From a virus (lineage: Duplodnaviria; Caudoviricetes): DNA of 62,417 nucleotides. Both the position numbers and the translations under genes were made by a program. Below, in pieces: positions 14,507-46,487 of this stretch; the stretch's first letter is position 1, and every line of letters starts with the position of its first letter. The DNA is taken from IMG/VR virus record IMGVR_UViG_3300022871_000020, positions 1-62,417 of that record. One strand, given 5' to 3'. Under the pieces are notes generated by a model. It saw nothing but the letters and a program-made list of their open reading frames with translations. It searched no databases and had not been told where the DNA came from.

Positions 14507-17342
14507 TTAATCGTTAATAAATTTAATTAATGTATCTACAACTTTTTTAGTTTCTCCATCATGACTAACTGAAGTATCCATATGATACTCCCCGTCTGTT
14601 ATGATATCTTTCAACATTTTCTTTTTAGCATCTGCACAATCAGATTTAACAGTCAATAATTCGTGGAGGGACTTCATAGTTCCATGAGCTATAATTCCTT
14701 CGCTTTAATATTCGAAAAAGATCGCGACTCATTTTCCGGGAAATCGTTCACCCTGCTGCATGTTATCCATGCAGAGTAGACTATATCTTTATCCTATAAG
14801 TTATAGGATACTCTCTGTTTCCCTGGCTCGCATTTCCAGGTACTCCCTTACGGGATAGTCGTTACACCTTCAATATATGTCGTTAAAACATATAGAGCTT
14901 GGCTCGGTATTGACCTCAGCATTATCTGTTAGGAAGTCCACCGAGTTAAAAGAGTTTTTTATACACATATTACTATGTGTAGGAGACCGATTCGGTTAAT
15001 CTCCATCTGACCCAAACGTTTTCCTCCGTCGTTCGATTTACCACGCAAAGGTTGCTTCGTTATAAAACGACATTTACCAAGGTCACGAGCAGCAACAATT
15101 TCAGAAACCATCTTATAGAGTTTAAAAGTGTAAATTGGTACCACAAACTTATTCTTAATAATAACATCATTATTGATTGTAAATGGTAATTCAAACTTTA
15201 ACTTATCTTTCATATAATTTAAAGTCTCTTTTTTAATCTTAATATGTTCAACATGTGATCGGTTTTGTTTGATTAATTTTTTAATATTTAATACACTGAA
15301 GCTTGGTGCTTCAATGAAAAATCCATTAGTCTTAACATCTTTAATAAATTCTTTAACAACTTGAGGATCTTCATTCATTCGAGAAATTAAATTACTAACA
15401 TCTGTATAATAATCAGTAGTATTTAGATTACTAATTATATTTTCGTTAATTTTAGTCAACTCAGAAATACAACAGTTTGGGTCGTTTAACATTTGTTCTT
15501 CACTTAGCATTACTTCTTTTGAAACCACTCCTTCAATCAACTGACTGATGTTCATTCTGCTGTAACAGCCAAAGGAATTGAATATACAATCAATAGGTCG
15601 ATTGCAACTCATAGCAATTGGTCTTAACTCATCTGGTAATGGATCACTTGCTATTCCTTTTCCTGCATACGCTTGTGTTACGAAGAGATTCGTTATTTCT
15701 CTCCTTCTATACATTTCTATATAGGCCAGACTATATCACGATCCAATCAAATTGGACCCGCCCCGTTTCCACTCCACTAAGAGTGTACTCTACTTTCTTC
15801 CATCTATTATAAAATAATAAATGTGATTTCGATAGTCGTTGCACCTTCAATAATAATATTTAATATATTATTAAAGCTTGGCTCAGGATTATCTTCAGCA
15901 TTATCTGTTTAGAGTTTCCCTGATAAAGAGGCGTTATTCGATTAAAATTACTTTTAAAAGTCGCTATTTTACAAACGATTTGCAAACTTATCTCCCTTTT
16001 GACTACCACTCTCACGAGTAATTTCTAGTTCGATTAAATATTTAGCATTTTTAAGCATACTAGCATTCGCAGAAATAGTATCTGGAATATACATCATATA
16101 ATTTTTAATTATTTGTTTTGCATAATCGCGATTAATCTTATATTGTAAATCATTAAACGGAGCAATAATACTTTCATCTGTTTGCATATTGACAAGTTTA
16201 TCTAGACACTTTTGAAGTTTTCCATCTATTAATTGAGGAACTTCTTTCTTATAGAGTTTATGAACACTTATTCCGGTAACTTTACCACCTTTAATTTTTG
16301 AAGTAATACCATCAACTTTAATCGCTTGAGTGCTCTCGTTATTCAAATTCAATAAATCTGAAAGTGTTAGTGAATTATAAAAACGAGTCATCTTAGTTTT
16401 AATAGTTGAAAGTGATTCAAATGCTCGCATTGAACTTGGTTTAAGTACAGAACAAACAACATTACCATGTATTTTTTGTCCAACATTTGGAAAGTATTTT
16501 AATGATCCTTCTACATCATTATATGAAGGCAACAAAATAGTATATTCAAATACAGGAATATACACTTTCTCACTTAATCTAACTTTGGCTCTTTCTAAAA
16601 AACTTTCACTCAATAGTAGAGAATCTTCGTGGTTAACCTTTATGTTCGAGATAAATCGCTACGGTTCTCCCCGGAATAAATCCCGCTGTATATTTCTATA
16701 CAGAGCAGACTATATCATCATCGACATTAATCGATGTTTTGTGCTTCCACTCACTTGAGTGTACTCCCCAAAGGGATAGTCGTTGCACCTTCCTCTCTAG
16801 CACAAGAGGCTTGGCTCAGGATTACCATTTAGACTTAGGCTTCCCCTGAATTCACAAAATTTGCATTTATTATTACTAATAAATGGGGCTTAATATTTTA
16901 ACCCAAAACCATTTATATAAGCTGTTAGTGTATTATAACCAAATGCTGGAATACCATTCTTAAAATTATCATAACTATATATAATATCACCCTTTTTAAA
17001 AGGTTGATCTTTCGATAGCATATAAGTTAATTTAGAACAATAATATCCTGTAGTCTTCTGATACAGGGGAATCTTATACTCTTTAAGTTCGTTTAAATTA
17101 GTGTAAAAAATAATAATTAGTTCATTGCTATTAAATACAACATAGCCATCATCTTTTGCAATACATAACCCAAGAAAGCTTGTTTCAGATAAATTACGAT
17201 ATTCATTTGAAATAACATAAGGTATTTGACAATTTTCATGAGTTATTGCTTGTGCTGCTTGTTTGGATGCCATTTGAGCTCTAGTTGAATCACAAGCCCC
17301 TAAAAATGGTAATGTACTAAGATTAACACTGGTTATTTGCAT
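14507..17342 (-). CDS. rpoB: RNA polymerase beta subunit, C-terminal piece; exons 17342-16901, 16636-15975, 15669-14999, 14702-14507 (656 aa spliced)
   Basis: LPFLGACDSTRAQMASKQ. Splicing restores GF/NHEDS, GDKFANR/YAGKG and GQMEI/EGIIAHG..ELLTVKSD; all exons stay in frame. Confidence 0.9.
14703..14998 (-). ncRNA. group I intron in betaC (GEME motif)
   Basis: 5' exon ends in U and pairs with IGS (GGAGAU/GUCUCC); ACGACUA..GAUAUAGUC P7; terminal G. Confidence 0.9.
15670..15974 (-). ncRNA. group I intron in betaC (GDK..R/..GKG motif)
   Basis: UCGU/GCGA P1 with U-G pair; AAUCCUGAGCCAAG; ACGACUA..GAUAUAGUC; terminal G. Confidence 0.9.
16637..16900 (-). ncRNA. group I intron in betaC (GxNxEDS motif)
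   Basis: GGGU/GCCC P1; AAUCCUGAGCCAAG; ACGACUA..GAUAUAGUC; terminal G. Confidence 0.9.
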
Positions 17343-37220: not shown

Positions 37221-39767
37221 CTACATCAGTTCCTTTTCTAAATTGTTTAAGTATAACTCTCCACAAGCTTGTGAGATTTTCAAACATAATCTCCCTGATA
37301 ATGTTGTAGACATTGCTAATTGTCGATTTGAAAATAAGAAACTTGCCATGCCTGTCAAACCATAACTTGAATTAGCATTAATTTTCATAGATAACTGTCT
37401 ACGATCAAAGAACTGATATTCATTTGATCCGTGAGGAAAAGTATCTCTTTTAGTTTTATACTCACTTCTTAAAGCAAGACGTTCAGTTAAGAAATGGTTT
37501 AATATTCCTTTATGTTTTTCATGTGTTGCAAAAATTGCTCCAGATAAATTAAAACTCAATTGTTTATCAACCAAATATTTTCCAAAATTTACTGAATCAA
37601 CTTTTTTAACACAACAATTATAATCATTTTCATTTTCAACAATAAGTACCCATGGATTTGTTGTTTCATCAAAATTCAATATATAATTATATGCAAATGT
37701 ATGATACTCTGGAACTTTCATTATCTCTGTCAATATATCTAATAATGGGAGTAAATAACTTTTTAATAACAAATATTCATGTTGAGTTGTTGGTGTAAGT
37801 AATTGCTTAATTGGTACTTTAGCATTAAGAATATCTTTTAATAATTTCATAAAGATAATATAAATATACTGTTTATGATTGTTTTTGTTTTGTGGATCAA
37901 GACGTTCAACAGATTTTTTAATTTCGTTAAATATCATTGTTTTTAGTTGTGGAATAATATCTTGATTGTGCTCGATTGCATTACTAACTGTGTTAATAAA
38001 TTTATATGCAACAGGATCAATCACTCGACCAAAATATGAATCGAATGATATGTTCGACTGACGCATCATTGAGGGATACAAGGCAGTATTATGAACTCCA
38101 ATTCCAGAACCAGCAAAGAAACGTTCAGTTTCTTCTACTGTTAAGTCATAGACTTTACCTGTATAATCTATAACTTCTATTGATTTAATTTTTTCTAATA
38201 TAATTTGATTGTTTATCTTAGATCTAACAACAATATAATTGCCAATTTTTAATTCTCCAGCGTTGACCAATTTAATATCATTGATATTATTAGTCAACGA
38301 ACTGAATATACTATGATTGTCAGTTACCGTCACAGCTTCATAACAGTTAGTTAGTAATTTAATTAATTTACCATTCCAATCATGTTCAGTTTTTCCTTTA
38401 ACTCTTTTCCAACACACCTCATTATTTTTATTCCAAGTTAAAGTTTCATCATTTTCTTCCCATTCATAATCACCAACATTTAAAGAATATTTAATATTAT
38501 TTTTACGAATAAATATCTTTTCTTCTGGAGGTAAACTTGCATCCATATCGACTAATATACCATCATTAATAGTAAGAGTCTTGCCGAGTCCTTCTTTGAC
38601 ATAAGCTCCAACAAATCTGCTCATTATTTTACGATATGTCTTCTGGTCTATACTAGTGATATTCCATTTAACGGATTTCTCTTTAGGGCGTTCAATCATG
38701 TCTATTTCTTCTTGACCAATTGAATGTGCCTGTTCCTGTAATAAACCAAACCTCATTCCAAGTGATTTCTTTTTCAATTCATAATTAAACATCGTTGAAA
38801 AGAATGAAGACGACCCAATTAAACTTGCTGTGAATGAAGTCTTCATATCCCGTCTCAATAAGTTATGTAACTCAATATGTTTGAGTTTATCATTTAATTG
38901 CACACAAACAGATACATCTGCAATATTATATTTAAAAAATTCTACTGGTTCTCTTGTATAGAATTGATCGAACGATAGATCTTGATGTTCAATCTTCTTT
39001 ATTCCAAGTTCTTCCTCAGCAATAAAATTAAGGGAGTACTTAGATAAAGACTTGCCGTAATTCAACCCGTTCTCCGAGCGAGGAATATATAATTGTCGAA
39101 TGTCCGCCACAGGATATTCAGCAATTTCAATGTTATTATTAAAACCAAATGATCGAGCTTTAACCACACCAAATTTACTAAGAGTATTAGCAACTTTATC
39201 AATATCATCATTATATAAATATTTCAATCTATAATATATGTACGGTAGATCAAAATTATTAAAATTAAATCCAGACAACACAGTAGGGTCAATTTGATGA
39301 ATCAATCTCCATATATCTTCAAGCATCTTTAATTCTTCATCAACATAAAAAAAGACACGAAGTTTATCGCTCGCTTTCAAATATTTTTCAGCAACTAATT
39401 CTTCTTTGAATTGTTTTTCATATTTACCAGGGTCATTAGTATCGACTAATGAATAATTCTGTGTCATCATAAGCAAACTAAACAAATAATATGTTTGTGA
39501 GTGACTGTCATAAACACAAACTGAATTAATAATTCCTGTCGCTTGCTTGTTACGTAATTTATCAAGTTCGCATTTAAACACCTCGAGATCAATAAACACA
39601 ACTTTTAATTCTTGATCAACATCCAAATTATCGCGTTCACCATAACGAGTATAATGATCGATTGAATAATGATGATCGCTATTTATTTCAGCATTATAGA
39701 ATTGATAATAATTTAATTCACCCTGTTCTAATTTATCAATAACATCGGGTAACTCTAGTTCTACCAT
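37221..39767 (-). CDS. family B DNA polymerase, N-terminal piece (exonuclease + motifs A and B), with intein
   Basis: FIDLEV, SGFNFNNFDLPY, YNIADV, DMDA/TALYPS, RQLSMKINANSSYG; no motif C. Confidence 0.92.
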   Translation of the reverse strand: MVELELPDVIDKLEQGELNYYQFYNAEINSDHHYSIDHYTRYGERDNLDVDQELKVVFIDLEVFKCELDKLRNKQATGIINSVCVYDSHSQTYYLFSLLMMTQNYSLVDTNDPGKYEKQFKEELVAEKYLKASDKLRVFFYVDEELKMLEDIWRLIHQIDPTVLSGFNFNNFDLPYIYYRLKYLYNDDIDKVANTLSKFGVVKARSFGFNNNIEIAEYPVADIRQLYIPRSENGLNYGKSLSKYSLNFIAEEELGIKKIEHQDLSFDQFYTREPVEFFKYNIADVSVCVQLNDKLKHIELHNLLRRDMKTSFTASLIGSSSFFSTMFNYELKKKSLGMRFGLLQEQAHSIGQEEIDMIERPKEKSVKWNITSIDQKTYRKIMSRFVGAYVKEGLGKTLTINDGILVDMDASLPPEEKIFIRKNNIKYSLNVGDYEWEENDETLTWNKNNEVCWKRVKGKTEHDWNGKLIKLLTNCYEAVTVTDNHSIFSSLTNNINDIKLVNAGELKIGNYIVVRSKINNQIILEKIKSIEVIDYTGKVYDLTVEETERFFAGSGIGVHNTALYPSMMRQSNISFDSYFGRVIDPVAYKFINTVSNAIEHNQDIIPQLKTMIFNEIKKSVERLDPQNKNNHKQYIYIIFMKLLKDILNAKVPIKQLLTPTTQHEYLLLKSYLLPLLDILTEIMKVPEYHTFAYNYILNFDETTNPWVLIVENENDYNCCVKKVDSVNFGKYLVDKQLSFNLSGAIFATHEKHKGILNHFLTERLALRSEYKTKRDTFPHGSNEYQFFDRRQLSMKINANSSYGLTGMASFLFSNRQLAMSTTLSGRLCLKISQACGELYLNNLEKELM
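38088..38537 (-). other. mini-intein (150 aa) in PolB motif A
   Basis: SLPPEE...VTVTDNHS...VYDLTVE...GVHN/T. Confidence 0.9.
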
Positions 39768-39879: not shown

Positions 39880-40257
39880 CTATTCATCTTCAACAAGTTC
39901 ATCTTCATCTTCATCGTCGTTATCATTATCAGATACTTCGTCGTTAATATACTTCTTAAATAATTTAGATGGTTTAAATCGAAGAGTCTTTTTCTCAGCT
40001 ACTTCAATAGACTCACCTGTGCTGGGATTTCTACCAGTGAAAGCTTTTTGAATTGCAGGAATAAAACTACCGAACTTTCTAATCTGAACTTCTTTTTCGT
40101 TCTTTACACTATCTTTAATAATTGACAGTACACATTCAATAGCTCTTGTTGATTCTGATTTAGTGAAATTACCTTTTTCGCAAACTAGTTCAATTAGATC
40201 TAGTTTGCCTATAATTTTATTATCAATTTTTTCAATAACAGTACTCTCTTCAGTCAT
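39880..40257 (-). CDS. hup: HU-family DNA-binding protein with acidic tail
   Basis: VQIRKFGSF...GRNPSTGESIEV....LRFKPSK. Confidence 0.9.
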   Translation of the reverse strand: MTEESTVIEKIDNKIIGKLDLIELVCEKGNFTKSESTRAIECVLSIIKDSVKNEKEVQIRKFGSFIPAIQKAFTGRNPSTGESIEVAEKKTLRFKPSKLFKKYINDEVSDNDNDDEDEDELVEDE

Positions 40258-40301
40258 TTTTTGGTTTCCTTTTTTTTAAGACTATTTATAAAATTGTTAA
40301 G

Positions 40302-40636
40302 ATAGTAAGCATACCAGCCTCGTTCGATTTACAGGATCAGACAAACTTTTTTAATTACTCAAGGATTTTATAAAATTTTAGATTTGACTTTTAAGATTTG
40401 ATGGTTTAACCTTTAAGTTTTAATCGTTGAATTTTAATCTTTGAAATTTAAACTTTAAATGTCAGGCGCTATAATAGCTCCTTGTAATTAGACTTTATGG
40501 GTCTAATACTAGTAATAATCTAATGATTATTACACCATTTAAGTGTTTTCCAAGTATGAGTTGGAAACTGAAGGGCATTTTTTTGGTCAGCCCTTGAAAG
40601 ACCAGTCTGAATTTTAATCCTCGGTATACTCACTAT
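40302..40636 (-). ncRNA. putative large structured RNA with pseudoknot and heptamer tract
   Basis: 14-bp closing helix with G-U pairs favouring the minus strand; H-type pseudoknot; several hairpins; about 12 NNYAAAN units. Confidence 0.7.
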
Positions 40637-40645
40637 ATTATTTTT

Positions 40646-41272
40646 TTAATCAGCAATATTTATCAAAGTCCGGGAGTTTGACTCTGAAAGAATAAAATCT
40701 ATGTTTAATTTAAATTCGTTAATTTTGTGTTCAAGGTCGTTGATTTTACCGGTAATGTCAATAGGGTCAATAATTTTTGGAGCATTACGTTTCAAAAATG
40801 GAGCTGAAATGCTTTCCATTTCGTCAGGCTTGATTTTTGATTTATCTTTATTCAGATTCGCCATCAGTAATGTATCTAGTCTTTCATTAACTGATTCCAT
40901 CAAATATTCGTATTTTTCAGTAATCGATGCTTTTTCTCTTCTCAATCGAACAAATAACTGTTCCCACAATATAATAATATTTTTGAAATCAATTGCTTCT
41001 GTCACTGACATTTCTTCTTCATTAATAGTAATTTTAGTCTGTGTGTTCGACAAAATAATCGCTCTTTTAATAACCATTCGTCGATTAGTCAAATCAATAA
41101 TAGACAAGTGTTCTGCCAATGAATATTTTTTAAACTTGTCAACTTCACCAAATCCTGGAATACTGTCTTCCCCTTTCTGGATGATAATCGGTGTATATTC
41201 GTTAGTTTTTTTTGTGATTCGTTTTTCAAGAAGTTTGCATTCGGCGAGTGCTCGGGTAATTGATATTTCCAT
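40646..41272 (-). CDS. coiled-coil protein (DIP1984-like/related family)
   Basis: MEISITRALAECKLLEKRI...IDP...IDFILSESN; predicted long helices. Confidence 0.65.
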   Translation of the reverse strand: MEISITRALAECKLLEKRITKKTNEYTPIIIQKGEDSIPGFGEVDKFKKYSLAEHLSIIDLTNRRMVIKRAIILSNTQTKITINEEEMSVTEAIDFKNIIILWEQLFVRLRREKASITEKYEYLMESVNERLDTLLMANLNKDKSKIKPDEMESISAPFLKRNAPKIIDPIDITGKINDLEHKINEFKLNIDFILSESNSRTLINIAD

Positions 41273-41377
41273 TTTTAAATTTCCTTTTTTTTGCTAAATT
41301 TTGAATTTTGAAATTTGAAAATAAAGTGTTATACATTAATAATTTATATATAAAAGTTGATATTATTAAAAACCTAT

Positions 41378-42790
41378 TCAACTTTTTTTAAGGAGATCAA
41401 CAACTCTTTCACAAGTCTTATTATAAACTTTACTCCAATGAAGTTTACGATCAATTTTAATTTTAAATATGTTAAATTTTTCTTTTACAAGTTCTGTATT
41501 AAATTCATACGGGAGACATATTCCATTTACATTTTTAAATTCACCAATTGTTACTGGGTGAATATAAACAAATTTAGCAGATGAACTAGGTTCAAATATA
41601 GGTTCATTCATTATATGATTATATAATTTCATTCCACTGATCATATTTTTTAACCGAGCCCATTTCCCTGGAATCCCCACATAATCAGTTTCAAGATTAT
41701 CTACACATTGATTAAATTTAGTATAGAATTTTCCGATTGTGTCGATTAACACTTGTCGTTTATTTTCTGGAAGAATTTCTGCATTCAAAGCAATATTTTC
41801 AATTATTTCTTTTAATAAATCTTGAGTTAATTTTGCAACATTTGATTTGATTACATCTATACCTGTATAGAAAACTTTAGGTTTTTTTAATGGGTTCCCC
41901 TCCTTAATTAACAGTTTGAAAGCGTATCTTTTTTTGGTATCAAGGAACATAATCGATTCCATTAACAACTCTGTTTTAAAGAAAGTTTGATTGTGTTCAG
42001 GTTTAATATTACATCTTGGTAATAAAACATCTTTAGTATAATCAATAATTAAATCATTGATTCCATTCGAAGCTTCAATTGCTTTGTTCCAGAGTTCATC
42101 TGGAGCTAATTGACTTGCATCTTCTTTTGTTGGAATTGTGATGAAGATACTGTCAGTGTTATGAACTACACAAAAATTAGCAATAAAAGTTTGAGTCTGT
42201 GGAATACATAAATCGTACACATAATCATCATAGTCAATTTTGTTAATAATACTTGTTTTCAACGACTTAATATTTTTAAGATTGTCAATTGGTTCTCCCA
42301 AAATTAATAATTCTTTATTATCGTCAATATTAATTATAGGGAGATATTCACATTCTATAGGTTTAATTATATCAAAATCTTTTGTTTTGTTATTGTATTT
42401 TAACAAAGAATGATTATTAGTAATGTCGAGAGTTTTTGTTGGACTTAATGATAATTGAACTAATTTAGTATCTACTTTATGTCTCATAATATATTCAGGA
42501 ACATCAAGAACCATTTTATCAGTTTTAATATCATAAGTTAATATCTTAATTTTATCATCAATAATAAAAATATATTCTTTACCATCTTGATATGTTATTA
42601 TATTACCATAAGATAATAATTCGTCCCACAATTTATCAAATGTTATTGTACAACAACGATTACGATTACTTCTTTTAATAATAGTTTCCGTATATTTAGC
42701 AACACTATCTGAGTACAGCACTTTCTTTAAACGACCTTTAATTTCAACGGTCTTATAAAAGTCTTTTTCTAGAAAATTCTTACTTTGCAT
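41378..42790 (-). CDS. family B DNA polymerase, C-terminal piece (motif C + thumb), with intein
   Basis: LYSD/TDSIF, KKRYA, YTGIDVIKS. Confidence 0.9.
   Translation of the reverse strand: MQSKNFLEKDFYKTVEIKGRLKKVLYSDSVAKYTETIIKRSNRNRCCTITFDKLWDELLSYGNIITYQDGKEYIFIIDDKIKILTYDIKTDKMVLDVPEYIMRHKVDTKLVQLSLSPTKTLDITNNHSLLKYNNKTKDFDIIKPIECEYLPIINIDDNKELLILGEPIDNLKNIKSLKTSIINKIDYDDYVYDLCIPQTQTFIANFCVVHNTDSIFITIPTKEDASQLAPDELWNKAIEASNGINDLIIDYTKDVLLPRCNIKPEHNQTFFKTELLMESIMFLDTKKRYAFKLLIKEGNPLKKPKVFYTGIDVIKSNVAKLTQDLLKEIIENIALNAEILPENKRQVLIDTIGKFYTKFNQCVDNLETDYVGIPGKWARLKNMISGMKLYNHIMNEPIFEPSSSAKFVYIHPVTIGEFKNVNGICLPYEFNTELVKEKFNIFKIKIDRKLHWSKVYNKTCERVVDLLKKS
42158..42706 (-). other. mini-intein (183 aa) in PolB motif C
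   Basis: SVAKYT...ITNNHSL...YVYDL...VVHN/T. Confidence 0.9.
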
Positions 42791-42794
42791 ATAG

Positions 42795-44153
42795 TTAATT
42801 TCCTATTTGATCCTGTGATTTAGTTATATCAAATTCTCGAATTTTGCATCCAGGAAATTCTTCAGTGATAATTTTCTTCTTTCTACGAATTTCTGGTATG
42901 GTGAACATGGGGAACGCACCATCTATTAAATCATAGATTGCTGGTTTGAGTTTACCTGGTTCAGAACGAAGTACACGACCACAAATTTGAATTAATGATT
43001 TCTTTCCAGAAAACAGTGATGCAAGAATCAACCCGCTTAGACGTGACATGTCAAATCCCTTGCCCACCATTTGATAAGTACACACGAGAAGAGTATCATT
43101 TTCTTTATCAATCTCTCGATCAGTACCAGTGAATTTTCTATTTTCAAGTCCTGCATCTGTAAGGCGATCAGAAATCAAATTAACCTGTTTCTTTGTCATA
43201 CATATGATAATTATATTATGACCTTCCGTCCTCATCTTTTGAGAAAGTCTAGCAATCAGATCAAGATAAGCTTCACTCTGTACAAGTATCTTATTATAAT
43301 ATGATTTCTTCTGAATATAATCAGTCATTTTATTCATGACGAAAGTATATTTTTGAAGCCCACTATTATAAAACACAAGATTGTAATTAGGAGTCATTTC
43401 ATATTCTTTTGACTCATATTCAATATTACCAATTGTGTTTTTCATTAGCACTTCAGCACAACCATTATGAAATGGTGTTGCAGATAATCCTAGAACATTA
43501 CGAGTTCGAAAGAAAACACTTACCTTTGCAAACATTTCAGATGATGATGTACAATGTACTTCGTCATAGATAACTAACCCAAATTGAGCTTTATCTATCT
43601 TCTTCATAAATGGATTAAAATTTCTTTTTAATTGAGACCCAAGTGATTGTGTCATAGCAATCGTAAATGGTTTGTCAACATTATAAATCTTTCCACGGAT
43701 TAATCCAATATCATTTTCGGTCAAATTGCCGAACGACATAATTGCAACAATCCATTGCTTTAACAATTCACTATTATCAATAACTATACAAGTTTTTAAT
43801 TTTAATTTAATTGCAAGATAAACAGCTAGAACAGTTTTTCCAGAACCTGGAGGAAGTTTTAAGATTGCGTTAACATATTGTTGTTTAAAGAATAGATCTT
43901 CAACAACTTTAGCAGCTTCTTTTTGAGCAGGACGTAATTTACCACTAAACTTTAAATCAATATGTCCCATAGGAACTTTAACTTTCCCAAAATATTGAAC
44001 CAATTCTGTAGCTGGATAATTATAATAAAACAATCTTGGTAAAAAATAAGTTTTTTCAGTTTTCAATATAATTAGTTCTGACCAATACTCTTGAAATTTG
44101 GGATATTTTCTAAGGTATTGTTCTTCGTGTTCGATTGATAAGTAGCACCACAT
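42795..44153 (-). CDS. SF2 helicase (UvsW/XPB-like)
   Basis: LRPAQ, LPPGSGKT, DEVH, GLSATP, QICGRVLR. Confidence 0.9.
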   Translation of the reverse strand: MWCYLSIEHEEQYLRKYPKFQEYWSELIILKTEKTYFLPRLFYYNYPATELVQYFGKVKVPMGHIDLKFSGKLRPAQKEAAKVVEDLFFKQQYVNAILKLPPGSGKTVLAVYLAIKLKLKTCIVIDNSELLKQWIVAIMSFGNLTENDIGLIRGKIYNVDKPFTIAMTQSLGSQLKRNFNPFMKKIDKAQFGLVIYDEVHCTSSSEMFAKVSVFFRTRNVLGLSATPFHNGCAEVLMKNTIGNIEYESKEYEMTPNYNLVFYNSGLQKYTFVMNKMTDYIQKKSYYNKILVQSEAYLDLIARLSQKMRTEGHNIIIICMTKKQVNLISDRLTDAGLENRKFTGTDREIDKENDTLLVCTYQMVGKGFDMSRLSGLILASLFSGKKSLIQICGRVLRSEPGKLKPAIYDLIDGAFPMFTIPEIRRKKKIITEEFPGCKIREFDITKSQDQIGN

Positions 44154-44159
44154 AATTAA

Positions 44160-45764
44160 TTATCCTTTTTGACTCAATGCAGCATATTGATGTTTGATTA
44201 AATTATCTTTCAGGGCTTTCGACAACTTGTATTTATTCCAACCATTGACATAAGTAACAGATTCAAATCCTTGATTTAACATATTACATTCTTTATAATC
44301 TGTAATATTTTTAATAAATATAGGTACTTTATATTCAACAATCCGATAAAATTTCGTACAAGTTTTGTTTTGAATAAAAATATTCAATATTTCATTTCCA
44401 TCTAAATTAACACTATCAAAATATGTCATATCTTCTGGGATAATATCTACTGTAATTAATTTTGAATCATCAATATTATACTTATTTGTAGAAACTTTAA
44501 TTTCTGGTTGTGTCTGTTTATTAATTGCAGAATCAATTTGTTTATTATTGTCAGCTTGTGAATTTGTTAATTTATTTGCAATTTGATAGATTGCTTGCCA
44601 AGATTTATCATAAACAGGTCTGTTATTATCGTTTCTGATAAGAGAACTAGGATGAATCAATGGAATTACAACGTTATTATTTACAGTTTGGATTGATCCA
44701 CTTTTTTGTGTAATTGAACCTTTTATTCCAAATGATTCCATAGAATGTTTTCCAACTAAAACATAATATTTTGCAGGAAACTTTTTAATAATTTCATCTA
44801 AGAATGGTTTACATTTATTTGCAACAAGTTTAATAGCTTTCTCTGTCTTACCAATATCTTTTTGAGTTGCAGCATTACATTGGATTACATTAGTAATCAC
44901 CCAAGATATTTTTGAATTTAATTGAAACATATTACTTCTGAGTAATTTTCCACTTTTACCAACACACAATTTTTTATACGTCACTTCTTCATTACCAGGA
45001 TTTAACATTATAAACATAAAATCAACAGGTTGAAAGTCTGGAACATTAGTGTCTAATGATATCATAGTTTTACTAAACAATGGACATTTTTCACAAAGTT
45101 GATTCTTCTTCTCTTGCAGTTCAGTTATAAAAGAATAAATATTATCTGGTAGTAATTTACTAATGTGATAATTAATATACTCTTCAATTTTAGCTGTGTC
45201 TACTTGAGGTTTATTCGAATCAATAGTTGATGATAAAGTATTTTCAGAAATACTAAACTTAGTCTTTTCTCCATTTAAAATTTGGTTCATTTTTTGAAGA
45301 TCGTCAATAGTAATTACATTTTTCGAAAACATTAAATATAAATGATTTAATTCTAAATCATTTAAATATTTTCTATTTATTGTTGAATAATATTCTTTTA
45401 ATAGAACTTTAACTTTAGACTTATTTTCGTCTTTAAAATCTTTAGCTTTGAAAAAAAATAATCTATTATGATTATTAGTCTTTAATAAATATTTAACACT
45501 AATTAATATATTTTCAACATCGTATTTATAAAATTCAAACTTACTGTTCATATACTTATTCACATACCATATTATGTATGGATTATTATATGAATATGCA
45601 ATCAATCTCTTAAATAAGAATTGTGGAGAAACATCGTATTTTTCTATCAAGTTTAAAATAATTTTGATATCGTAGTTGTCTTTATTTAAGAATTGAGTTA
45701 ACTCTTTTAAAAATGTTATGAAATTTAATTCAATTTTTTTGATTTGTTTTTTTGGTTTTGCCAT
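44160..45764 (-). CDS. large protein with a central family-4 uracil-DNA glycosylase-like domain
   Basis: CEKCPL, FIMLNPG.EE, VGKSGKLL, ITNVIQC, CKPFL, HPSS. Confidence 0.75.
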   Translation of the reverse strand: MAKPKKQIKKIELNFITFLKELTQFLNKDNYDIKIILNLIEKYDVSPQFLFKRLIAYSYNNPYIIWYVNKYMNSKFEFYKYDVENILISVKYLLKTNNHNRLFFFKAKDFKDENKSKVKVLLKEYYSTINRKYLNDLELNHLYLMFSKNVITIDDLQKMNQILNGEKTKFSISENTLSSTIDSNKPQVDTAKIEEYINYHISKLLPDNIYSFITELQEKKNQLCEKCPLFSKTMISLDTNVPDFQPVDFMFIMLNPGNEEVTYKKLCVGKSGKLLRSNMFQLNSKISWVITNVIQCNAATQKDIGKTEKAIKLVANKCKPFLDEIIKKFPAKYYVLVGKHSMESFGIKGSITQKSGSIQTVNNNVVIPLIHPSSLIRNDNNRPVYDKSWQAIYQIANKLTNSQADNNKQIDSAINKQTQPEIKVSTNKYNIDDSKLITVDIIPEDMTYFDSVNLDGNEILNIFIQNKTCTKFYRIVEYKVPIFIKNITDYKECNMLNQGFESVTYVNGWNKYKLSKALKDNLIKHQYAALSQKG

Positions 45765-45872: not shown

Positions 45873-46487
45873 CTAGAGATCTGCCAACATCGCATCAAGA
45901 GTGCTGTCAAGAGCCTGTTTGGCCTTTCCTCCGCCTTTGGAACCGGGCTGGGAATCACTGGGACGGGAAAGACTTTTTAGAATCTTATTCTCGACCTTTT
46001 GAGCAAAGTCCGTCAACGGACTATTGTAATCCGCCTTGACATCCCCTTTCTTTGTTATCCGCTCACCATATGCCTTTTCATCATCGGCTAAGGCTCCATC
46101 AATGGCACTTTTTCTGAGACCTTCTTTCAAAGTCTGCAGAATTCTATTCACCTGATGCTTTGTCAGTCCAATTTTATCTCCCATTTCTTTGTAGCCCATC
46201 GTAGCTACATTCTGTACTACGAATTTGATCTCATCTTTTCCGATGATTTTAGTTGCCAGTCGAACCTGTTTCTTCTTTTCATCAGGAGCAACTTCGACAG
46301 CAGCAGGAGCATCAATAGGAGCAGGGGGAACAGGAGTTCCAGTCGCTGCTACAGGGGGAACGCCTACAGGTGCTGTCTGAGGGGGAGTAGAAGGAGCAGC
46401 AGGAGCAGCTTTGGGAGCAGCTTTGGGAGCAGCAGAAAGAGCAGTTTTGGGAGCAGTGAATGCCGGGGGTGCAGTAAAATCAGTCAT
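45873..46487 (-). CDS. hypothetical Pro/Ala/Lys-rich protein with HTH-like segment
   Basis: AAPKAAPK low-complexity N-terminus; YKEMGDKIGLTKHQVNRIL. Confidence 0.6.
   Translation of the reverse strand: MTDFTAPPAFTAPKTALSAAPKAAPKAAPAAPSTPPQTAPVGVPPVAATGTPVPPAPIDAPAAVEVAPDEKKKQVRLATKIIGKDEIKFVVQNVATMGYKEMGDKIGLTKHQVNRILQTLKEGLRKSAIDGALADDEKAYGERITKKGDVKADYNSPLTDFAQKVENKILKSLSRPSDSQPGSKGGGKAKQALDSTLDAMLADL

What the first reader, a model, noticed from the sequence alone, without database searches (positions are those of the whole stretch)
40302..41363. Self-contained protein + large structured RNA module with a shared 7-nt repeat code (best candidate for an undescribed system)
Seen, on the minus strand in order: a copy of the candidate promoter (41342-41363); a leader with heptamers TTCAAAT TTCAAAA TTCAAAA TTTAGCA right before the RBS; a 208-aa coiled-coil ORF; and, about 10 nt after its stop, a ~335-nt element closed by a 14-bp helix (AUAGUGAGUAUACC/GGUAUGCUUACUAU, with G-U pairs that work only on this strand). 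Inside the element are an H-type pseudoknot (UGGUC/GACCA crossing AAGGGC/GCCCUU, 40571-40604), five hairpins, long-range AGGAUU/AAUCCU and UCAGAC/GUCUGA pairings, and about 12 apparently unpaired heptamers (UUUAAAG UUUAAAU UUCAAAG AUUAAAA UUCAACG AUUAAAA CUUAAAG GUUAAAC..., 40370-40459). Inference: the protein oligomerises on NNYAAAN repeats, forming an RNP with the downstream RNA and autoregulating through the same repeats in its own leader. That could be an RNA-scaffolded filament, an RNA-antitoxin-like pair or a sponge. The module lies between the two polB halves like an inserted cassette. I recognise no named RNA family for it.
Basis: partly seen in the sequence, partly recalled or inferred. 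Interest (0 to 1): 0.85.

Follow-up and report, generated by a model that had tools for sequence, protein, structure and literature searches.

The report
Phage protein with dedicated heptad-repeat RNA
Directly behind a small helical-protein gene this salt-lake phage encodes a real, doubly knotted RNA of about 335 bases with twelve evenly spaced 7-base units; the same pair occurs in phage T5, many other phages and Bacillus-type chromosomes, and its job is unknown.

Summary
The promoter-like motif, leader heptamers, 208-aa ORF, 14-bp closing helix with strand-specific G-U pairs, H-type pseudoknot and 12-unit heptamer tract are all at the stated coordinates.

The pair is a conserved module. The ORF is PHROG 1491 (phage T5 gene T5.085, labelled 'tail fiber' without visible basis) and folds like PDB 3KDQ. 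A model of the RNA's 3' domain hits just downstream of the gene in 49/52 viral loci, 52/55 bacterial or archaeal genome loci and 5/7 metagenome loci, and once per genome in five whole phage genomes.

Five helices covary (P1, P2, P5, pseudoknot PK1, long-range PK2). Repeat spacing peaks at 7 nt.

Relatives place the RNA in same-strand tRNA arrays. Some have a tRNA 3-13 nt after it, one a twister-like ribozyme, four a nested tRNA.

No Rfam family, PADLOC model or paper matched.

Best reading (about 0.55): an RNP in which protein dimers bind the heptads, with feedback through the same units in the mRNA leader. These units are enriched there: 15/46 versus 29/358 control leaders. Binding and function are untested.

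This scan's earlier notes report the same module in at least eight other genomes.

The parts
41342..41362 (-). Phage promoter-like motif TATCAACTTTTATATATAAAT, about 70 nt upstream of the ORF start
   Evidence: 8 copies in the window with 3 or fewer mismatches, all on the minus strand, 0.88 expected. Conserved in relative L206. Many unrelated metagenome contigs match only this stretch (tables 7 and 8).
41292..41319 (-). mRNA leader with three N-U-Y-A-A-A-N heptamers plus one degenerate unit, just upstream of the Shine-Dalgarno
   Evidence: Sequence. L206 keeps the units in register with changed letters, UUCAAAA to CUUAAAA. Leaders of the family are enriched for such units: 15/46 versus 29/358 control leaders, Fisher p = 1.6e-5.
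40646..41272 (-). 208-aa helical protein, PHROG 1491 / phage T5 T5.085 family, 3KDQ-like fold
   Evidence: E = 6.8e-51; 683 phage records; pLDDT 89; Z 11.9 to 3kdq_A; 3532 clusters at E <= 0.001; homodimer score 0.55, best control 0.00.
40302..40636 (-). Structured non-coding RNA, 335 nt, bounded by helix P1
40623..40636 (-). P1 5' strand AUAGUGAGUAUACC, followed by the conserved G (40622) that faces U40316
   Evidence: Anchored P1 found in 68/84 downstream regions. 55 G-U against 2 A-C cells in P1 columns 1-10 of 36 RNAs, plus an invariant G-U in column 11. Metagenome variants at 40631 and 40628 turn G-U into A-U and C-G.
40616..40621 (-). P5 5' strand AGGAUU
   Evidence: Partner-swap test: own mean 13.50, swapped 8.85, 0/2000 permutations.
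40605..40610 (-). PK2 5' strand UCAGAC (long-range pairing)
   Evidence: In L206 this is UUAGAU with AUCUAA, two compensatory pairs.
40571..40604 (-). H-type pseudoknot PK1: UGGUC/GACCA crossing AAGGGC/GCCCUU
   Evidence: a knot at the same place in 19 of 36 RNAs under the script's loop limits; compensatory changes in stem 2 in L206.
40459..40570 (-). Variable region with lineage-specific hairpins. In four relatives a whole tRNA sits here.
40365..40458 (-). 7-nt periodic tract, 12 N-U-Y-A-A-A-R units
   Evidence: spacing histogram over 36 RNAs peaks at 7 (60 cases) and 14-15 (32); nucleotide similarity of this tract to distant phages whose proteins are only 30-40% identical.
40360..40364 (-). 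P2 5' strand CCUUG, preceded by the conserved AAAAU
   Evidence: 98.8% of cells paired; 4 of 5 pairs change on both sides.
40333..40342 (-). GUCUGAUCCU: 3' partners of PK2 (GUCUGA) and P5 ((GA)UCCU), overlapping by two bases
40318..40322 (-). P2 3' strand CGAGG, followed by CU
40302..40315 (-). P1 3' strand GGUAUGCUUACUAU

Best explanation
The ORF and the 335-nt sequence behind it are the two halves of one conserved phage and prophage module: a small helical protein (T5.085 / PHROG 1491 family) and its own uncatalogued RNA.

Shown.
- The RNA is a compact fold: closing helix P1, helix P5, H-type pseudoknot PK1, long-range pairing PK2 and a P2/P3 3' domain.
- This fold holds out a 7-nt periodic array of about 12 N-U-Y-A-A-A-R units.
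- The RNA almost always follows the protein gene, on the same strand and once per genome.

Inferred.
- Both are transcribed from the phage promoter-like motif at 41342-41362.
- The RNA is released from the transcript. In relatives this would be by RNase P at an abutting tRNA or by a twister-like ribozyme.
- Dimers of the protein bind the heptad units side by side to give a ribonucleoprotein particle.
- Surplus protein binds the look-alike units in its own mRNA leader beside the ribosome-binding site and lowers its own translation, as ribosomal proteins do.

What the particle does in the infected cell is not known. My guess is an early function that acts on, or decoys, host RNA, tRNA or translation machinery.
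For: Module.
- The R1 model of the 3' domain (built) hits directly downstream of the gene, on the same strand, in three sets of loci at E <= 0.01. The sets are 49/52 viral or GenBank loci (15 of the 18 that were not in the seed), 52/55 bacterial or archaeal genome loci and 5/7 metagenome loci.
- There is one significant hit per genome in T5, a 285-kb phage, a 130-kb phage, Deep Blue and PVP-SE1, each next to the gene.
- In an RNA-first search, 6 of the 79 pattern loci examined carry the RNA, and 6/6 have the gene directly upstream.

Structure.
- RNAalifold finds P1 and P2 with many two-sided changes.
- P2 is 98.8% paired. The covariation score is 0.394 against 0.127 for shuffles (0/500) and 0.13 or less for slid controls.
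- Partner-swap tests for P2, P5 and PK2 give 0/2000 permutations each.
- Pseudoknot.
- The close relative L206 has compensatory changes in PK2 and in PK1 stem 2, and pair-preserving changes in P1.

Strand. 55 G-U against 2 A-C cells in P1. All neighbouring tRNAs lie on the same strand.

Periodicity. Spacing peaks at 7 and at 14-15. The tract is similar at nucleotide level between phages whose proteins are 30-40% identical.

Processing. A tRNA starts 3-13 nt after P1 in 9 of 57 distinct RNAs. A tRNA is nested in the RNA in 4. A twister-P1-like match (41.3 bits, below the gathering score of 67.2, E = 1.2e-5) starts 1 nt after the RNA in L009.

Feedback. Two or more UYAAA units lie in the leader in 15/46 family leaders against 29/358 controls (p = 1.6e-5). 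Periodic pairs occur in 7/46 against 4/358 (p = 3.7e-5). Leader units are kept in register in L206.

Protein. The fold is confident (pLDDT 89). A homodimer scores 0.55 with best control 0.00. That mark was reached by 20 of 30 proteins solved as pairs and 1 of 23 solved as single chains. Runs agree in at least 96% of contacts, and partner pLDDT is at least 85. The invariant N- and C-terminal motifs lie outside the predicted dimer interface.
Against: - No experiment or co-fold shows protein-RNA contact.
- No RNA sequencing run holds this stretch, so the transcript, its ends and its abundance are unseen here.
- Only about a third of family leaders carry the units (15/46), so feedback, if real, is not universal.
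- AU-rich leaders can also be plain translation enhancers.
- Energy models do not single out the tract as unpaired (0.43 against 0.39). UUUAAA is self-complementary, so RNA-RNA contacts are possible.
- The P4 hairpin aligned poorly (56.7% paired).
- No terminator-like site follows the RNA in the window, and no tRNA or ribozyme defines its 3' end here.
- The neighbour survey gave no constant third partner and no clear functional theme.
Confidence: 0.55

Rival explanations
1. The RNA acts without the neighbouring protein as its ligand. It could be a sponge or decoy for a host RNA-binding factor or nuclease that recognises single-stranded A/U-rich units, such as Hfq, ribosomal protein S1 or RNase E. 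Or it could be an RNA-only multimer held by the self-complementary UUUAAA units. The protein would then be a helper (folding, processing or stability) or merely co-expressed.
For: - The tract is A/U-rich, and energy models do not show it unpaired.
- Large phage-associated RNAs beside tRNAs are known to form RNA-only assemblies (ROOL and GOLLD; abstract of PMC12286853 seen in the listings).
- AU-rich leaders can act as translation enhancers (my own knowledge).
Against: - The motif and the partner gene stay together from Gram-negative T5-like phages to Bacillus, Brevibacillus and Clostridium genomes, whose host factors differ.
- The strict one-gene, one-RNA linkage is what a cognate pair predicts.
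- There is no match to the ROOL or GOLLD models.
Confidence: 0.2
2. A translation- or tRNA-linked RNA in the manner of tmRNA-SmpB or a tRNA mimic. The RNA travels and is processed with tRNAs. Its N-U-Y-A-A-R-N units look like strung-out anticodon loops (U33, purine 37, anticodon YAA) or like runs of AAA/AAG codons. The particle would engage ribosomes, tRNA-modifying enzymes or anticodon nucleases.
For: - Same-strand tRNA arrays around 27 of 57 distinct RNAs, nested tRNAs in 4, and tRNAs abutting the 3' end in 9.
- The overall layout (closing helix, 5' pseudoknot, long open tract, size about 260-400 nt) recalls tmRNA (recalled).
- In Pseudomonas phage Pyxpy02 the small gene just upstream is annotated SsrA-binding protein (annotation not checked).
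Against: - ARAGORN finds no tmRNA or tRNA in the window.
- No tmRNA family matches even at E <= 10.
- There is no T-arm or CCA end next to P1.
- The window's phage has no tRNA genes at all, yet keeps the module.
- The anticodon-loop likeness is my own pattern reading, and part of it was built into the motif search.
Confidence: 0.1
3. A toxin-antitoxin-like or exclusion cassette of the type III kind, in which a repeat RNA neutralises a harmful protein.
For: A protein gene is tightly linked to a repeat-bearing RNA, and the pair also sits in bacterial chromosomes, possibly prophages.
Against: - There is no hit to 5027 defence models.
- The protein is an all-helical bundle, unlike the ToxN-type endoribonuclease fold (recalled).
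- The units are 7 nt inside one elaborate fold, not tandem units of about 36 nt, and the RNA follows rather than precedes the gene (recalled for ToxIN).
- The module is single-copy in strictly lytic phages such as T5.
Confidence: 0.07
4. A DNA-level element (replication origin iterons or a packaging site), or a cis-regulatory leader or trailer of a neighbouring gene.
For: In the window it lies among replication genes (polB parts, HU, helicase, UDG-domain protein). Seven-base direct repeats resemble iterons.
Against: - Helices keep pairing through G-U on one strand only (55 G-U against 2 A-C) and through compensatory changes.
- In other phages the module lies in tRNA arrays or next to structural genes, not replication genes.
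- The downstream gene varies: HU here, tRNAs, portal or hypothetical genes elsewhere.
Confidence: 0.03

Closest known systems
PDB 3KDQ, an uncharacterised Corynebacterium diphtheriae protein (recalled as DIP1984), and Pfam DUF6847 (PF20935)
   Same: Best structural match of the protein model: VIA-align Z 11.9, rmsd 5.9, 151 of 152 residues aligned, next entry Z 7.7. Foldseek E = 6.2e-3. The nearest Pfam-bearing Atlas cluster carries DUF6847 on 16% of its members, score 0.87.
   Different: - Sequence relation is not significant: profile against PDB E = 0.31, and DUF6847 hits 1 of 18 family members at E = 0.04.
- 3KDQ is about 55 residues shorter.
- Neither has a known function or a known RNA partner.
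TRAP with the trp leader, HutP with hut mRNA, CsrA with CsrB (recalled from my own knowledge)
   Same: They work alike on paper: an oligomeric protein reads many short, regularly spaced single-stranded units in one RNA, and look-alike units near a ribosome-binding site give translational control.
   Different: - No sequence or fold relation.
- Those units are 3-5 nt (GAG/UAG, GGA), and the RNAs are leaders or simple sRNAs.
- Here the units have a 7-nt period and sit inside a doubly knotted frame of 260-400 nt that is encoded next to the protein in phages.
tmRNA with SmpB
   Same: Similar size, a closing helix formed by the two ends, a pseudoknot 5' of a long open tract, and maturation together with tRNAs.
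   Different: - No tRNA-like domain, no tag reading frame (UAA occurs in all frames) and no ARAGORN or Rfam match.
- The partner is not SmpB-like.
ROOL and GOLLD RNAs
   Same: Large, ornate, phage- or prophage-borne RNAs often found beside tRNA genes, with unknown function.
   Different: - No match to those models.
- They are larger (about 580-800 nt, recalled), form RNA-only cages (abstract of PMC12286853) and have no dedicated protein gene.
Type III toxin-antitoxin ToxIN (recalled)
   Same: A protein gene is linked to an RNA made of repeats that binds it.
   Different: The repeat length, gene order, protein fold and elaborate RNA frame all differ. No PADLOC hit.
RAGATH-27 motif (Rfam RF03100), named as closest known in three earlier notes of this scan
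   Same: An orphan candidate RNA. The link to self-cleaving ribozyme neighbourhoods fits the twister-like element abutting the RNA in L009.
   Different: It was not matched here: nothing at E <= 10 in the window region or at E <= 1 in 12 relatives' loci.

Membership tests
PHROG 1491 (T5.085 family; library label 'tail fiber protein') | Full-length match to the family profile | tested here: met
   E = 6.8e-51, residues 2-206 on profile positions 4-209 of 211. PVP-SE1 gp082 is annotated as similar to T5.085, and T5.085 itself lies in locus L084.
Tail fibre proteins (function implied by the label) | Placement in the tail or structural module, or a fibre-like fold | tested here: not met
   - The protein is a 208-aa helical bundle.
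- It lies among replication genes here, in tRNA arrays in Deep Blue and PVP-SE1, and among early-region genes in T5.
- No fibre appears among the fold matches (absence there is weak evidence).
DUF6847 (PF20935) / 3KDQ-like | Match above Pfam's gathering score | tested here: not met
   No Pfam family at E <= 0.1 for the window protein. 1 of 18 members matches at E = 0.04.
DUF6847 (PF20935) / 3KDQ-like | Shared fold | tested here: met
   Z 11.9, rmsd 5.9, 151/152 aligned, well above the next row at 7.7. For helical bundles, Z under about 13 can be a common arrangement, so this is suggestive only.
tmRNA | tRNA-like domain and tag reading frame, detected by ARAGORN or the Rfam tmRNA models | tested here: not met
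   ARAGORN reports 0 genes in the window. No tmRNA family at E <= 10 in 40200-41400.
Any Rfam 15 family (including ROOL, GOLLD, RAGATH-27, group I/II introns) | Covariance-model match at the gathering score | tested here: not met
   - In the window, only three group I introns elsewhere.
- In the region, three chance-level rows with E = 2-8.7.
- In 20 relatives' loci, only tRNAs.
- In 12 loci at E <= 1, only tRNAs, one twister-like element next to the RNA, and two chance rows.
Type III toxin-antitoxin and other known defence systems | Match of the protein to a defence-system model | tested here: not met
   0 families at E <= 1 in PADLOC-DB.
Type III toxin-antitoxin | Toxicity of the protein, relieved by the RNA | not testable with these tools
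   Needs expression in a laboratory host.
The heptad-repeat RNA family defined here (model R1) | 3' domain (AAAUCC, P2, P3, GGCU, P1 3' strand) directly downstream of a PHROG 1491 gene | tested here: met
   Window 40306-40407 (-), 62.4 bits, E = 5.7e-10, the only significant hit in 62,417 bases. The window sequence was in the seed. L206 and L214, not in the seed, score 61.2 bits.

The most novel reading that the evidence does not exclude
An ancient, widespread and so far unrecognised viral ribonucleoprotein particle. About six dimers of a 3KDQ-like protein line up on a 7-nt periodic N-U-Y-A-A-R-N track held out by a doubly pseudoknotted RNA frame. The RNA is cut out of tRNA operons by RNase P or a twister ribozyme. 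The particle would act as a decoy or clamp for host machinery that reads anticodon loops or A-rich single strands (anticodon nucleases, tRNA-modifying enzymes, ribosome-dependent or RNA-targeting defences), giving phages from T5 to Bacillus phages a shared, RNA-based counter-measure.
Probability: 0.12. Interest if true: 0.95.

Novelty: categorically new. Interest (0 to 1): 0.85.

Why it matters
- Phage T5 has been studied for seventy years. The RNA lies unannotated in it and in none of 60 sampled T5-like records is it marked as an RNA (440 records match).
- The partner protein forms at least 3532 clusters at 50% identity and is widely mislabelled 'tail fiber'.
- A dedicated protein plus a complex RNA with several pseudoknots and a strict 7-nt register points to a new kind of protein-RNA recognition.
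- It also points to an unknown step of infection shared by very different phages and prophages.
- The module is directly testable in T5 with E. coli K-12 and in cultivable Bacillus, Brevibacillus and Exiguobacterium strains.
- Correcting the annotation would alone affect hundreds of genome records.

Tried and rejected
Searches and tests that led nowhere.
- Sequence searches of the protein gave nothing: Pfam, NCBIfam, PDB by sequence, PADLOC. The profile against PDB gave only non-significant rows. Scanning all 18 family members against Pfam gave no shared family.
- Expression: the look-up of sequencing runs listed 24 runs, and no RNA holder was listed. This says nothing either way.
- Read laying used DNA contigs only, so it shows variants, not transcripts. 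The two listed P1 variants preserve pairing. RNA-core contigs had 3/182 and 3/159 differences, against 12-28 per 157-234 bases for four of the five listed ORF contigs; the fifth had 4 in 168. However, 53 differences and 47 pieces were not shown, so I use this only as a hint.
- Per-sequence tests of the long-range pairings against shuffled partners were not significant (mean 15.8 against 14.4). Only the partner-swap design showed them.
- The pseudoknot script found the knot at the conserved place in 19 of 36 RNAs (mean score 26.75 against 20.5 for shuffles). Others, for example T5, seem to have it with longer loops than the script allowed. That is my reading of the printed sequences, not a count.
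- My tract finder broke off early in about half of the 36 RNAs. The spacing histogram therefore rests mainly on the RNAs with long uninterrupted tracts.
- Unpaired probabilities did not set the tract apart.
- The P4 hairpin stayed poorly aligned.
- The sigma-70 promoter scan was not informative in this AT-rich DNA (18 found, 10.9 expected), and no minus-strand terminator follows the RNA.
- Neighbour survey: 143 ORFs from 38 of 41 non-redundant loci; three loci were dropped because my ORF caller missed the target. The counts were PhoH 4, HU 3, PIN_4 3, Rv2179c-like exoribonuclease 2 and RNA ligase 1, with no constant partner.
- The first metagenome scan with the single protein found no relative. 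The second, with alignment A6, found 8.
- The exact-pattern scan GATAAAATCCNNGATTAAAGG found 3 loci. The shorter pattern hit 120 stretches, mostly by chance. I searched the 79 listed new ones and 6 carried the RNA.

Literature. Nothing was found on 'phrog1491', 'T5.085', a function for 'DIP1984' (two unrelated papers) or phage structured RNA plus tRNA terms. For the papers in those listings I saw only titles and abstract starts. There were two exceptions. In PMC11879866 I read three passages found by term, none about this gene. In bioRxiv 10.64898/2026.09.22.753630 I read five passages, which describe a different, reverse-transcriptase-linked phage RNA array. The T5 gene-fitness tables of PMC11879866 may bear on whether T5.085 matters for growth.
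Full report
WHAT IS IN THE WINDOW

Read on the minus strand, the region holds the following features.
- A promoter-like motif at 41342-41362.
- A leader with three N-U-Y-A-A-A-N heptamers (41299-41319) and one degenerate unit, ahead of a GGA Shine-Dalgarno.
- A 208-aa ORF at 40646-41272.
- From about 10 nt after its stop codon, a 335-nt element at 40302-40636, closed by a 14-bp helix.

Two pairs of that helix (G40631-U40307 and U40628-G40310) are G-U on this strand only. The promoter-like pattern has 8 copies in the window, all on the minus strand, against 0.88 expected. The element folds better than all but 1 of 100 shuffles (z = -3.39).

The H-type pseudoknot is at 40571-40604, and 12 units lie at 40365-40458 with spacing mostly 7.

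The window is a complete 62,417-base virus record by CheckV's estimate. It comes from salt-lake and marine metagenomes and has no tRNA gene.

THE PROTEIN

The protein has no Pfam, NCBIfam, PADLOC or PDB sequence match. It is a full-length member of PHROG 1491 (E = 6.8e-51).

tblastn finds it in 683 phage records, all below 60% identity. These include T5-like phages, PVP-SE1-like phages, Pseudomonas phages and Bastille-type Bacillus phages. PVP-SE1 gp082 is annotated as similar to T5.085. A profile search finds 3532 clusters at E <= 0.001.

The 'tail fiber' label has no visible basis.
- The model is a helical bundle (pLDDT 89).
- The gene sits among replication genes here, in tRNA arrays in Deep Blue and PVP-SE1, and in the early region of T5.

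The best fold match is PDB 3KDQ, an uncharacterised C. diphtheriae protein: Z 11.9, 151/152 residues aligned, next entry 7.7; Foldseek E = 6.2e-3. A fold of two copies supports a symmetric dimer:
- The score is 0.55, with best control 0.00.
- That mark was reached by 20 of 30 proteins solved as pairs and by 1 of 23 solved as single chains.
- Runs agree in at least 96% of contacts, and partner pLDDT is at least 85.

This is support, not proof. The invariant N- and C-terminal motifs (ITRALAE.K, LSESN) lie outside that interface.

THE RNA IS REAL AND CONSERVED

Nearly every homologous locus has an ORF-free gap of 300-700 nt after the gene. The heptamer tract of the window is similar at nucleotide level to the same place in phages whose proteins are only 30-40% identical. 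One example is L007, at 77% over 106 nt with E = 1.8e-17. The PVP-SE1 match lies exactly in the gap behind gp082.

Closing helix P1. A helix whose 5' strand is followed by G-A-A-A and whose 3' strand is preceded by G-G-C-U is found in 68 of 84 downstream regions under strict rules. In 15 of the other 16 it appears with variant anchors.

Alignment of 36 non-redundant RNAs (A2).
- RNAalifold returns P1 and a second helix, P2.
- P2 was not used for selection. Its middle pairs read UA 15 / AU 15 / GC 3 / CG 2 and UA 11 / GC 9 / AU 8 / CG 6.
- P1 holds 55 G-U cells against 2 A-C cells, which fixes the strand.

Covariance model of the 3' domain (R1; 111 positions, 13 pairs).
- It finds one hit directly behind the gene in 49 of 52 viral or GenBank loci at E <= 0.01, including 15 of the 18 loci not in the seed. 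The other three give weak hits at the same place.
- On that alignment P2 is 98.8% paired. The covariation score is 0.394 against 0.127 for shuffles (0/500) and 0.13 or less for slid partners. P3 is 73% paired, and P4 is poorly aligned.

Partner-swap permutation tests on 34 RNAs.
- They support P2.
- They support a helix P5, between the first bases after P1 and the stretch before the P3/P2 3' strands.
- They support a long-range pairing PK2, between the bases just 5' of the pseudoknot and the loop of the 3' domain.
- Each gives 0 of 2000 permutations.

Pseudoknot. An H-type pseudoknot sits 16-22 nt after P1 in 19 of 36 RNAs under the script's loop limits.

THE WINDOW'S OWN LINEAGE

L206 comes from a metagenome contig and its protein is 76% identical. 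It keeps the whole arrangement: polB C-terminal part, promoter motif, leader units, gene, RNA and the HU gene start.
- UCAGAC/GUCUGA becomes UUAGAU/AUCUAA, which is two compensatory pairs.
- Stem 2 of the pseudoknot gains a G-C where the window has U-U, and swaps A-U for U-A.
- Three changes in P1 all keep pairing.
- The heptads change letters but not register.
- The hairpins between the pseudoknot and the tract differ by deletions.
- The leader units change from UUCAAAA to CUUAAAA, still N-U-Y-A-A-A-A.

LINKAGE OF GENE AND RNA

- R1 gives one significant hit per genome in T5, a 285-kb phage, a 130-kb phage, Deep Blue and PVP-SE1, each next to the gene.
- Starting from an RNA motif instead of the protein, 6 of the 79 pattern loci examined carry the RNA. 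All 6 have the gene directly upstream, three of them on contigs not seen before.
- The pair also lies in 52 of 55 loci from bacterial and archaeal genome assemblies. These include Brevibacillus, Paenibacillus, the Bacillus pumilus/safensis group, Exiguobacterium, Clostridium and several MAGs.
- It lies in 5 of 7 further metagenome loci.

PROCESSING CONTEXT

The counts below are of 57 distinct RNAs.
- 27 have tRNA genes within 2.5 kb, every one on the same strand.
- In 9, from about five lineages, a tRNA starts 3-13 nt after P1.
- In 4, a whole tRNA is nested between the pseudoknot and the tract.

In L009 a twister-P1-like match (41.3 bits, below the gathering score of 67.2, E = 1.2e-5) starts one base after the RNA. 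These findings suggest that the 3' end is made by RNase P or by self-cleavage. The window has neither, and no terminator-like site follows the RNA.

THE REPEATS AND THE LEADER

Spacing between units peaks at 7 (60 cases) and at 14-15 (32 cases). Leaders of the family's genes carry two or more UYAAA units in 15 of 46 cases, against 29 of 358 other ORF leaders in the same loci (p = 1.6e-5). Periodic pairs occur in 7 of 46 against 4 of 358 (p = 3.7e-5). Leaders with such units are seen in the window, T5, PVP-SE1, a Pseudomonas phage and a 285-kb phage.

This is the pattern expected if the factor that reads the RNA's units also reads the mRNA. The neighbouring, always-linked protein is the simplest candidate. 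Binding itself is not shown.

WHAT IT IS NOT

- No Rfam 15 family matches.
- It is not tmRNA and not a known defence protein.
- The strand-specific pairing rules out a DNA-level element.
- The downstream gene varies, so it is not that gene's leader.
- The 'inserted cassette' picture fails, because the polB C-terminal ORF precedes the N-terminal ORF on the coding strand.

PRIOR KNOWLEDGE

In T5 the RNA occupies the unannotated gap 43142-43504 behind T5.085. The T5 version matches 440 records, and none of the 60 sampled rows marks an RNA there. Seven literature searches found no description.

After I had formed this reading, the scan's own notebook showed that other agents had reported the same module in at least eight other genomes, with the same conclusion. 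Their RAGATH-27 lead did not reproduce on my loci.

VERDICT

This is a conserved, uncatalogued gene-plus-RNA module.
- It is most likely a ribonucleoprotein particle with heptad-directed protein binding and leader feedback (confidence about 0.55 for that mechanism).
- Confidence that the structured RNA and its linkage to the gene are real is about 0.95.
- The function is unknown.

Noticed in passing
window 14756-15008, 15707-15982, 16686-16916 (-): Three group I introns above Rfam's gathering score (68.2, 61.5 and 106.5 bits) within about 2.2 kb. They presumably interrupt one or two genes.
   Followed up: no
window 37221-39767 (-) and 41378-42790 (-): Family B DNA polymerase is encoded as two ORFs in permuted order, with the C-terminal part upstream of the N-terminal part. 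Each ORF carries an intein (Intein_splicing E = 8.7e-11 and 5e-10). The split falls between motif B and motif C. The arrangement is conserved on the upstream side in relative L206.
   Followed up: partly
window 39880-40257 (-): An HU-type DNA-binding protein gene (PF00216, E = 1.6e-24) with an acidic tail follows the RNA directly, with no terminator between. HU genes are also among the four nearest ORFs in 3 of 38 other loci.
   Followed up: partly
window 9146-60176 (-), 8 sites: The promoter-like consensus TnTCAnnnTTnATATATAAAT occurs 8 times, all on the minus strand. It has no sigma-70-like spacing and looks TATA-box-like. Many unrelated metagenome contigs match only this stretch.
   Followed up: partly
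L214 (genome contigs): A 76%-identical copy of the gene plus RNA lies on a 3-kb contig binned as a Candidatus Woesearchaeota MAG. This is probably a viral contig caught in the bin. The host of the window's phage is unknown.
   Followed up: no
L009 3493-3554 (+): A twister-P1-like ribozyme match (41.3 bits, E = 1.2e-5, below the gathering score) starts one base after the 3' end of the RNA.
   Followed up: partly
L014, L021, L032, L042: A complete tRNA gene (Thr, undetermined, Ser, Tyr by ARAGORN) is nested inside the RNA between the pseudoknot and the repeat tract. The RNA would therefore be cut into two pieces held together by P1.
   Followed up: partly
L084 = NC_005859 40848-41566 (-): The T5 record annotates a separate 719-nt 'rnaX, stable RNA with unknown functions' about 1.6 kb downstream of the module. 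It is not the RNA described here.
   Followed up: no
window 45873-46487 (-): A 204-aa ORF has an Ala/Pro-rich N-terminal third, unusual in this AT-rich genome.
   Followed up: no
window 44160-45764 (-): A 534-aa ORF carries a uracil-DNA glycosylase superfamily domain (E = 4.4e-10) in its middle, next to a ResIII/DEAD helicase gene at 42795-44153.
   Followed up: no
L001 2706-2930 (Pseudomonas phage Pyxpy02): The 75-aa gene just upstream of the family member is annotated smpB / SsrA-binding protein in the record. I did not check whether the annotation is sound.
   Followed up: no
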